A program made the translations under genes and the position numbers. From assembly GCA_026397405.1 (NCBI GenBank), contig JAPLUW010000001.1, positions 339,977 to 403,976 on the forward strand: a stretch of 64,000 nt of DNA. The letters run 5' to 3'. The notes beneath the pieces are model-generated. The model searched no databases, was not told where the DNA came from, and saw only the letters and a list, made by a program, of their open reading frames with translations. How positions within the stretch are numbered: the stretch's first letter is position 1; each line of letters begins with the position of its first letter. Of the stretch, positions 2,348 through 4,134 are shown one piece after another. The stretch comes from Candidatus Adlerbacteria bacterium. GTDB taxonomy: Bacteria; Patescibacteriota; Minisyncoccia; Phycocordibacterales; SBAW01.

Positions 2348-2890
2348 ATGCCTAACTTAATTCAAGAACAACAGAAGACAACGTTTAAAGACCTCAAGGG
2401 CGACTTTGGGTGGACAAACGTCATGCAAGTACCAAAGATCCAGAAGGTGGTAATTTCTGTAGGCGTTGGTTCTACTAAAGACAAAAACAAAGTAAAACTT
2501 ATCGAAGACCGTCTTGGTCGTGTCACCGGGCAGAAGCCTGCTGTGCGTGGTGCAAAGAAGTCTATCGCTACCTACAAAACCCGCATTGGTGACAAAATTG
2601 GTTACCAAGTAACCCTCCGCGGTAAGCGCATGCAGGATTTTTTGAACCGCATGATCCACATCGCGCTTCCTCGTACTAAAGACTTTAAAGGTATCCCAAC
2701 TACGTCAGTCGACGAGATGGGTAACTACACACTTGGTATTAAAGAACACTCAGTGTTCCCTGAAACTGCCGACGAAGAATTGAAAGATGTCTTTGGCATG
2801 GCGGTGACTGTTGTCACAACAGCAAAAGACAAAAAAGAGGCGCGTGCATATTTGGCCCACCTCGGCTTCCCATTCAAAAAAACAAATTAG
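2348..2890 (+). CDS. rplE: 50S ribosomal protein L5
   Basis: 180 aa. L5 motifs (VPKIQKVVISVGVG...) and operon position. Confidence 0.9.
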   Translation: MPNLIQEQQKTTFKDLKGDFGWTNVMQVPKIQKVVISVGVGSTKDKNKVKLIEDRLGRVTGQKPAVRGAKKSIATYKTRIGDKIGYQVTLRGKRMQDFLNRMIHIALPRTKDFKGIPTTSVDEMGNYTLGIKEHSVFPETADEELKDVFGMAVTVVTTAKDKKEARAYLAHLGFPFKKTN

Positions 2891-2912
2891 TTTAAAAACT
2901 ATTTTCCTCCTC

Positions 2913-2940
2913 AAAAACTCCCCACAGGGGGAGTTTTTGT
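2913..2940. terminator. Bidirectional intrinsic terminator hairpin (ACTCCCC-ACAG-GGGGAGT), with an A-tract on one side and a T-tract on the other
   Basis: Perfect inverted repeat AAAAACTCCCC / GGGGAGTTTTT seen directly, immediately after the rplE stop. Confidence 0.6.
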
Positions 2941-2949
2941 TTTGGTAAA

Positions 2950-2976
2950 AGAAAAACGGCGCTTTGTGTGCGCCGC
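2950..2976 (-). terminator. Intrinsic terminator for the minus-strand insertion gene (GGCGC-TTTGTGT-GCGCC, followed on the minus strand by a T run)
   Basis: Inverted repeat with AAAAAC on the plus strand. It lies just 3' of the minus ORF stop at 2983. Confidence 0.5.
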
Positions 2977-2982
2977 TTCGGA

Positions 2983-3332
2983 CTATTCCAAATCCAATTC
3001 CTGTTGGTTTGGATGTTCGTCACGTGTAGGTTCTTGAGAAACAAAGAGGGAATTGACGAAATAGAGAGGACAGATATGTTTGGCCGCTTCTGCGGGGGTT
3101 GCGTCCCCATAGTTGAAACACTCTATCAGGCCGCCATCGCTGGCCCAGCACGAGCATTTCCTAGGTGAATCCTCGCAGTAAGCTTCTTCAAACTTCCACC
3201 ATATAAATCTTTTTCTCCCTAGTGTCAGGTGGTCCCCGGTGTGGCCATGTTCGCGTAAGCACCCTTGGTCCGACTCCGTTTCGTCAAATAGGTCAACCTC
3301 TTTTCGAGGCATAACAATGCCGCAGCAGCTCA
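2983..3332 (-). CDS. Hypothetical Cys/His-rich small protein, convergent insertion inside the ribosomal protein operon
   Basis: The minus-strand ORF extends to 3393 with a TTG start. The best ATG is at 3332, preceded by a GGGAGAG Shine-Dalgarno. There are at least 8 Cys plus an HGHTGDH motif. It has its own terminator and occupies an atypical 665-bp gap between rplE and rpsN. Confidence 0.4.
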
Positions 3333-3555
3333 TGCAACTCTCCCGTGAAAAACTGTCTGCCAACGTTATACCACCTCTACAAAATCTGAACAATTTTATT
3401 CTAAAAGAAGGAGTTTGACTTCTAAAGTAGGTTCAAGTATATTGATGCCTAGCCCAACAGGGCTCCTTTTTTCTACTAGGTGCCGCTTAGTCGCAAGGCG
3501 AGGTAAACCGGTAGAATCATAACTCCCAAAGGTATATGGGGAGTAACCACGAATA

Positions 3556-3741
3556 ATGGCTAAAAAATCAACAGTCGCACGCTCAAACAAGGCTCCGAAG
3601 TTTGCTTCGAGGGTCGTTCGTCGTTGCTTCCGTTGTGGCCGCAAGCGTTCGTTTATGCGCGACTTCGGCATGTGCCGTGCGTGCTTCCGCGAAGCTGCAA
3701 ACGAAGGCCTTATCCCTGGCGTCCGCAAGTCATCTTGGTAA
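3556..3741 (+). CDS. rpsN: 30S ribosomal protein S14, type Z (zinc-binding)
   Basis: 61 aa with the CxxC...CxxC zinc ribbon ([25 protein letters not shown]). Confidence 0.85.
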
Positions 3742-3744
3742 TTT

Positions 3745-4134
3745 ATGGTAACTGACCCAATCTCAGATTTGATAATCCGCATTCAGAATGCGTCACGTGC
3801 TAAAAAGGAAAGCATGTCTTTGCCGTTTTCGCAGATGAAGCTTGCTATTGCAGAAGTCCTGCAGCAGGAAGGCTACATTGCTGCGGTCGACAAAAAGTCG
3901 AAGAAGGAAGGCAAGCTCACACTTTCGCTTGCGTACAAAAACGGTGCATCGGTTGTACAGGGTGTTAAGCGCATTTCTAAACCATCACGCCGCGTGTACT
4001 TTAGCGTCCACGATGTAAAGCCAGTTAAACGCGGCTACGGTCTCCTTGTCCTTTCAACCCCAGCTGGCGTTATGAGCGGCAAGCAGGCAAAGATTAAACA
4101 TGTCGGTGGGGAAGCACTGTTCGAAATTTGGTAA
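3745..4134 (+). CDS. rpsH: 30S ribosomal protein S8
   Basis: N-terminus MVTDPISDLIIRIQNA and C-terminus YGLLVLSTPAGVMSG are typical of S8. Confidence 0.9.
   Translation: MVTDPISDLIIRIQNASRAKKESMSLPFSQMKLAIAEVLQQEGYIAAVDKKSKKEGKLTLSLAYKNGASVVQGVKRISKPSRRVYFSVHDVKPVKRGYGLLVLSTPAGVMSGKQAKIKHVGGEALFEIW

What the first reader, a model, noticed from the sequence alone, without database searches (positions are those of the whole stretch)
2891..3555. 665-bp insertion with a convergent Cys/His-rich gene inside the otherwise gap-free spc ribosomal operon
All other junctions from rpsC to secY are 0-25 nt. The rplE-rpsN junction instead holds 665 bp, containing a bidirectional terminator right after rplE (2913-2940). 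A minus-strand ORF at 2983-3332 has its own SD (GGGAGAG) and its own terminator (2950-2976). It encodes a 116-aa protein with at least 8 Cys and an HGHTGDH motif, which I could not place in a family. An antisense gene in this position would interrupt spc operon transcription, so it is either a recent insertion or a lineage-specific regulatory or selfish element.
Basis: seen in the sequence. Interest (0 to 1): 0.55.

Follow-up and report, generated by a model that had tools for sequence, protein, structure and literature searches.

The report
Split ribosomal operon with orphan gene
The 665-base gap in this uncultivated bacterium's ribosomal gene cluster is real, but it is a normal, lineage-wide break in the cluster that holds a small metal-binding-type gene of unknown function and a previously undescribed RNA leader that probably lets ribosomal protein S8 control the downstream genes.

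Summary
rplE (2348-2890) and rpsN (3556-3741) are 665 nt apart, while all other junctions from rpsC to map are -14 to +21 nt. It has its own SD and terminator, and a bidirectional terminator follows rplE.

The window is a Candidatus Adlerbacteria (Patescibacteria) genome. In about 80 relatives the rplE|rpsN spacer ranges from 30 to about 4,900 bp and carries unrelated cargo, so this is a lineage-wide operon break, not a recent insertion.

The ORF is a real gene of a small orphan family:
- 13 representatives were found among 1.8 billion proteins.
- C25, H31, H35, W46, C62, E71 and C72 are invariant.
- It has no Pfam, PDB or fold match.
- 11 of 15 lineages with known context carry it in this same spacer, antisense to the operon. 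Four carry it elsewhere.

Its function is unknown; it is probably a Zn-binding protein.

The spacer also holds a promoter and a 107-nt structured rpsN leader (3449-3555) that is not in Rfam. The model found 64 matches with strong covariation, nearly all demonstrably upstream of rpsN. The invariant core (A-G-G-U / A-W-A-C-C) copies the S8 binding site of 16S helix 21, so it is a candidate S8 autoregulatory leader.

The parts
2348..2890 (+). rplE (uL5), last gene of the upstream transcription unit (rpsC...rplE)
   Evidence: ORF list. It is 99% identical to the L5 of a Candidatus Adlerbacteria MAG.
2912..2939 (.). Bidirectional intrinsic terminator: 12-bp perfect hairpin CAAAAACTCCCC/GGGGAGTTTTTG, with an A-run 5' and a T-run 3'
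   Evidence: I2. The stem is kept and the loop changed in the 94%-identical relative L001.
2953..2979 (-). Intrinsic terminator of the Cys/His gene: 10-bp stem followed by TTTTTCTTTT, starting 4 nt after the stop codon
   Evidence: It is conserved in L001.
2983..3333 (-). Gene for a 116-aa Cys/His-rich protein of an orphan family, probably metal-binding
   Evidence: Invariant residues are C25 H31 H35 L36 W46 C62 E71 C72. Near-invariant residues are C4 C53 C60 I70.
3338..3344 (-). Shine-Dalgarno GGGAGAG, 4 nt before the ATG of the Cys/His gene
   Evidence: Read directly from the sequence.
3365..3393 (-). Candidate promoter of the Cys/His gene: TTGTTC, 17 nt, TATAAC, with TGG just upstream of the -10 box
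   Evidence: Read from the sequence. The block is conserved in L001 while its surroundings carry indels. This is an inference. The scan tool instead lists a weaker site at 3426-3398.
3415..3443 (+). Sigma-70-type promoter of rpsN: TTGACT, 17 nt, TATATT (10 of 12 matches)
   Evidence: An equivalent promoter-like site precedes rpsN in 30 of 56 relatives, against 10 of 56 shuffled sequences.
3449..3555 (+). Structured rpsN leader RNA. P0 3451-3455/3460-3464. U-tract 3465-3474. P1 3471-3477/3510-3516. S8-site-like core A3478, G3479-C3509, G3480-C3508, U3481-A3505, A3506, A3507. P2 3482-3484/3502-3504 and 3490-3492/3497-3499. P3 3523-3527/3539-3543.
   Evidence: It is 100% identical between the window and L001. 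No Rfam match at E<=10. Core compared with E. coli 16S 595-599/639-644.
3556..3741 (+). rpsN (uS14, 61-aa zinc-type form), first gene of the downstream unit
3745..4134 (+). rpsH (uS8), the proposed regulator that binds the leader
   Evidence: It aligns end to end with B. subtilis S8 and keeps the RVY, S-T and GGE RNA-contact positions.

Best explanation
In this Candidatus Adlerbacteria genome the S10-spc gene cluster is two transcription units, and the 665-nt spacer is the boundary between them.

(1) Transcription of rpsC...rplE stops at a bidirectional terminator at 2912-2939.

(2) The spacer is a permissive slot that holds different accessory genes in different relatives. Here it holds one self-contained minus-strand gene (2983-3333) with its own promoter, SD and terminator. 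The gene encodes a 116-aa cytoplasmic protein of an orphan family. Its conserved ligand set is C4...C25-x5-H31-x3-H35 plus C53, C60, C62 and C72, which suggests one or two tetrahedral metal (Zn) sites. The gene was most likely present at this spot in the ancestor of an Adlerbacteria-like clade and has since been lost or replaced in most descendants. Its biochemical role is unknown. My best guess is a small Zn-stabilised binding or regulatory protein, not an enzyme or a mobile-element protein.

(3) Transcription restarts at a sigma-70-type promoter at 3415-3443. The mRNA begins with a 5'-terminal GC hairpin and a U6 tract. A long irregular helix (P1-P2) follows, whose invariant internal loop reproduces the S8 binding site of 16S rRNA helix 21. 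I infer that excess S8, encoded by the second gene downstream, binds this leader and represses the rpsN-rpsH-rplF... unit. That would be the same logic as S8 control of the E. coli spc operon, but at a different gene and with an unrelated leader.

Shown: the anatomy, the conservation, the covariation, the family and its synteny. Inferred: metal binding, S8 binding, repression, and the promoter start sites.
For: Gap and signals.

Lineage-wide break:
- The rplE-rpsN distance ranges from 30 to more than 3,800 bp in 56 genome loci and from 149 to 4,917 bp in 27 metagenome loci.
- The cargo is heterogeneous: HTH regulators, a reverse transcriptase, endonuclease VII, methyltransferases, peptidoglycan enzymes.
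- Only the Cys/His family recurs, in 7 loci.

Real gene:
- A 92%-identical homologue keeps the open frame with 6 synonymous and 10 non-synonymous changes (dN/dS about 0.4) and all 8 Cys.
- 13 representatives at E<=1e-3 among 1.84 billion proteins.
- Conserved Cys, His, Trp and Glu columns.
- AF2 with the alignment gives pLDDT 72.

Synteny: homologues 31-48% identical lie in the same spacer, antisense to the operon, in L082, L083, L084/85, L087, L088 (two tandem copies), L089, L144, L009, L013 and L110. All carriers fall in one clade of the L5 tree.

Leader:
- It is identical in the window and L001 while the neighbouring DNA diverges.
- The RNAalifold structure has compensatory changes.
- On the MAFFT seed alignment 92.7% of cells are paired, against 36-50% in slid controls.
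- The model finds one hit in the 64-kb window. The 17 hits at E<=1e-3 among the window and 87 loci lie in the rpsN leader region of their locus (for the 14 loci with coordinates).
- A pattern scan of all JGI metagenome contigs gave 50 hits, 49 directly upstream of an S14 gene.
- On 56 distinct sequences 93.7% of cells are paired and 18 of 26 pairs show compensatory change.

S8 mimicry:
- In the 14 leaders not selected by pattern, the bulged A, the two G-C pairs and the A642 equivalent are 14 of 14. The U-A pair is 13 of 14, and the exception is a covarying C-G. The 641 equivalent is A or U in 13 of 14.
- E. coli 16S reads A595 A596 G597 U598 C599 / G639 A640 U641 A642 C643 U644.
- The defining triples A595-(596-644) and (G597-C643)-641 and the invariant A642 are described in PMC4176348. 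In T. thermophilus the 596-644 pair is C-G.
- The window's S8 keeps the RNA-contact residues.
Against: Protein:
- Metal binding rests on a residue pattern only.
- Four family lineages lie outside the ribosomal cluster, and most members of the clade lack the gene. A functional tie to the ribosome is therefore not supported.
- The divergent members L110 and L013 lack part of the C-terminal Cys set.
- dN/dS rests on only 16 substitutions.

Leader:
- The S8 match is a pattern of about 9 nucleotides.
- The 50 metagenome sequences were retrieved with a pattern that fixed AGG, ACC and part of P1, so conservation there counts only in the 14 genome-derived leaders.
- Alignment A5 was fitted to the model's structure.
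- No SD lies at normal spacing. GGGGAG is 11 nt from the AUG here and up to 34 nt in L084, so the route from S8 binding to repression is unclear.
- The hairpin plus U6 at the very 5' end looks like a terminator, and its role is unexplained.
Confidence: 0.6

Rival explanations
1. The spacer is a recent insertion of a selfish or mobile element that carries the Cys/His gene, for example a miniature transposon or a free-standing homing-endonuclease gene targeting this site.
For: The gene has a patchy distribution within the clade: 7 scattered lineages among roughly two dozen in the L5 tree, and 1 of 27 metagenome loci. It usually sits at the same site. Other cargo in this slot includes a reverse transcriptase and an endonuclease VII.
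Against: There are no terminal direct or inverted repeats beyond chance 10-18-mers. GC content is 0.47-0.51, like the flanks. No transposase, HNH, GIY-YIG or LAGLIDADG signature was found in Pfam, PHROGs or PADLOC. There is a single copy in 64 kb. Copies in different lineages are only 31-48% identical while their L5 proteins are 73-84% identical, which is what long vertical residence gives. A protein of 83-129 aa with no nuclease motif is too small for a homing enzyme.
Confidence: 0.07
2. The Cys/His protein is functionally tied to the ribosome or to the zinc-type S14 next door. It could be a lineage-specific ribosomal or assembly protein, a Zn donor for S14, or a regulator of the divergent rpsN promoter. 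On this view it is kept in the spacer for co-regulation.
For: 11 of 15 lineages with known context keep it in the rplE|rpsN spacer. In the window, L084 and L087 it is divergent from rpsN with only about 210-230 bp between the start codons, so the two promoters lie close together. It has conserved Cys/His ligands, and the adjacent S14 is the Cys-containing 61-aa form.
Against: Most genomes of the same clade have the same S14 and the same leader without this gene. Four lineages carry the gene away from ribosomal genes, next to glycosyltransferases or a glyoxalase-like gene. In L082, L083, L009 and L013 other ORFs separate it from rpsN. There is no similarity to any ribosomal protein in the PDB.
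Confidence: 0.13
3. The ORF is a spurious reading frame in a degenerate spacer. Only the RNA signals (terminators, promoter, leader) are functional.
For: There is only one close homologue in 5.8 billion clustered proteins by word search. dN/dS of 0.41 on 16 substitutions is not far from neutral. Single-sequence AF2 gives a poor model.
Against: Thirteen representatives are found at E down to 1e-13, with invariant Cys, His, Trp and Glu columns. Gene callers predicted the homologues independently in many assemblies. The 351-nt frame has no indel, whereas the 100 nt upstream of it have several. The ORF has a dedicated SD and terminator. With the alignment, AF2 pLDDT rises to 72.
Confidence: 0.03
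4. The conserved rpsN leader is bound by something other than S8. Candidates are S14 itself, another protein of the unit (L6, L18, S5, L15), or a small molecule. Alternatively it acts only as an mRNA stabiliser or a transcription insulator.
For: The 5'-terminal hairpin plus U6 is the most widespread element. It also occurs in the simple rpsN leaders of other Paceibacteria clades that have no S8-like helix. How S8 binding would block an SD-less start is not evident.
Against: The invariant nucleotides sit exactly at the positions that define the S8 site, whereas the flanking helices covary freely. S8 is encoded 190 nt downstream, and it is the known regulator of the spc operon in E. coli (PMC4176348).
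Confidence: 0.25

Closest known systems
S8 autoregulation of the E. coli spc operon (S8 target at the start of rplE, a mimic of 16S rRNA helix 21)
   Same: It is a cis-acting mRNA helix inside the spc gene cluster, upstream of rpsH. Its asymmetric internal loop repeats the helix-21 core: the A595 equivalent, a 596-644 pair, G597-C643, U598-A640 and A642.
   Different: It lies in front of rpsN, not rplE, at the 5' end of a separate transcript with its own promoter. The sequence and overall architecture (P0 hairpin plus U6, P1, P2, P3) are unrelated, and no Rfam family matches. The 596-644 pair is G-C. S8 binding has not been tested.
Ribosomal-protein leaders found by comparative genomics (for example the 20 candidates of Eckert and Weinberg 2020, PMC7247131)
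   Same: It is a conserved, covarying structure in the 5' UTR of a ribosomal-protein gene, restricted to one lineage.
   Different: That paper describes no rpsN leader. Its only mention of S14 is as an L31 contact, and rpsN, Parcubacteria and Patescibacteria do not occur in its text. This leader is confined to an Adlerbacteria-like clade of Patescibacteria.
Small Cys/His zinc-binding proteins (zinc ribbons, treble clefs, C2H2-like fingers)
   Same: It is short (83-129 aa), with eight conserved potential ligands, including C-x5-H-x3-H.
Variable 'hot-spot' islands between conserved core genes
   Same: The flanks are fixed (rplE and the rpsN leader). The content differs in almost every genome, sits on either strand, and includes regulators, toxin-like genes and a reverse transcriptase.
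   Different: It sits inside the most conserved gene cluster of bacteria. No integrase or att-like repeat was seen.

Membership tests
S8-binding autoregulatory mRNA site (spc-operon type) | Helix interrupted by an asymmetric internal loop with the helix-21 core: a 595 base stacked on a 596-644 pair, a G597-C643 pair with base 641, U598-A640, and invariant A642 | tested here: met
   The window has A3478, G3479-C3509, G3480-C3508, U3481-A3505, A3506 and A3507. In the 14 leaders not selected by pattern these are 14 of 14, apart from U-A at 13 of 14 (one covarying C-G) and the 641 equivalent, which is A, U or G. E. coli reference. Definition from PMC4176348.
S8-binding autoregulatory mRNA site (spc-operon type) | Located on the mRNA that encodes S8, upstream of rpsH | tested here: met
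   The leader spans 3449-3555, rpsN 3556-3741 and rpsH 3745-4134. All 49 metagenome hits with downstream sequence precede an S14 gene.
S8-binding autoregulatory mRNA site (spc-operon type) | Binds S8 and represses translation of the operon | not testable with these tools
   This needs binding and reporter assays. The window's S8 does keep the RNA-contact positions RVY, S-T and GGE.
S8-binding autoregulatory mRNA site (spc-operon type) | Homology to the described E. coli rplE-leader site or to any curated RNA family | tested here: not met
   No Rfam 15 match in 3440-3555 even at E<=10. It works like the E. coli site but is not a member of that family.
Intrinsic (rho-independent) terminators | GC-rich hairpin followed directly by a U-run | tested here: met
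   2912-2939 on the plus strand (also read from the minus strand through its A-run) and 2979-2953 on the minus strand. Both are kept in L001. Function has not been tested.
Zinc-ribbon / CxxC zinc-finger proteins | Two CxxC (or CxxH) knuckles | tested here: not met
   The family has no conserved CxxC. The conserved ligands are C4, C25, H31, H35, C53, C60, C62 and C72. No Pfam zinc-finger model matches.
Metal-binding small protein (generic) | Four or more conserved Cys/His able to form a tetrahedral site, and measured metal content | tested here: inconclusive
   The ligand pattern is conserved, but L110 and L013 lack part of the C-terminal set. Model coordinates could not be inspected, and metal content cannot be tested here.
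Mobile element (IS / MITE / homing-endonuclease gene) | Terminal repeats or target duplication, a transposase or nuclease domain, multiple copies | tested here: not met
   Only chance-level repeats. No such domain. One copy in the window.
Toxin-antitoxin or anti-phage defence system | Match to known defence or TA families, or a conserved partner gene | tested here: not met
   PADLOC gave 0 of 14 members. No neighbouring ORF family recurs with it.

The most novel reading that the evidence does not exclude
The orphan Cys/His protein is kept in the rplE|rpsN spacer because it acts on the ribosome or on the adjacent rpsN unit. It could be a Patescibacteria-specific Zn-dependent ribosome-associated or assembly factor, or a regulator of the divergent rpsN promoter. 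Together with the new S8-sensing leader, it would then form a lineage-specific control hub in the middle of the spc cluster.
Probability: 0.12. Interest if true: 0.7.

Novelty: new variant of a known kind. Interest (0 to 1): 0.5.

Why it matters
Three points would matter if confirmed.

(1) The most conserved gene cluster in bacteria is routinely split after rplE in a large class of ultra-small, host-dependent bacteria (Paceibacteria). The split serves as a slot for accessory genes. This is relevant to anyone who uses this cluster for phylogeny, binning or operon prediction in Patescibacteria.

(2) The rpsN leader would be the first ribosomal-protein leader described for this phylum, as far as Rfam 15 and the searched literature show. 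It would be an independent reinvention of helix-21 mimicry for S8 feedback at a different gene. It gives a directly testable RNA-protein pair.

(3) The Cys/His protein is a clean example of a conserved, syntenic orphan family with a probable metal site in organisms where a large share of genes have no known function. Its fixed address makes it easy to follow in metatranscriptomes.

Tried and rejected
- Pfam, NCBIfam, PHROGs and PADLOC on the protein and on all 14 family members gave nothing below E 0.02.
- A PDB sequence profile search gave only a chance hit at E 0.16 to PvuRts1I.
The family was therefore not searched for in viral contigs, and in metagenome contigs only indirectly, through the leader pattern.
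- I first read P3 (CUCCC/GGGAG) as an SD-sequestering hairpin. I dropped this because GGGGAG lies 11 nt from the AUG here and up to 34 nt in relatives.
- I considered P0 plus U6 as an attenuator with P1 as anti-terminator. I rejected this because the 3' strand of P1 is made only after the U-run, and nothing lies upstream of P0 on the transcript.
- A 5S-rRNA or L18/L5-site resemblance was considered from memory, and no match was seen.
- The Merianos 2004 S8-spc mRNA structure paper is not in the library. PMC4176348 was used instead.
- Literature searches for an rpsN/S14 leader, or for a spc-operon description in Patescibacteria, found nothing relevant.
- The 136-aa TTG-started version of the ORF (to 3393) was rejected. 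Homologues start at the position of the ATG at 3333, and 3365-3393 looks like the gene's promoter.
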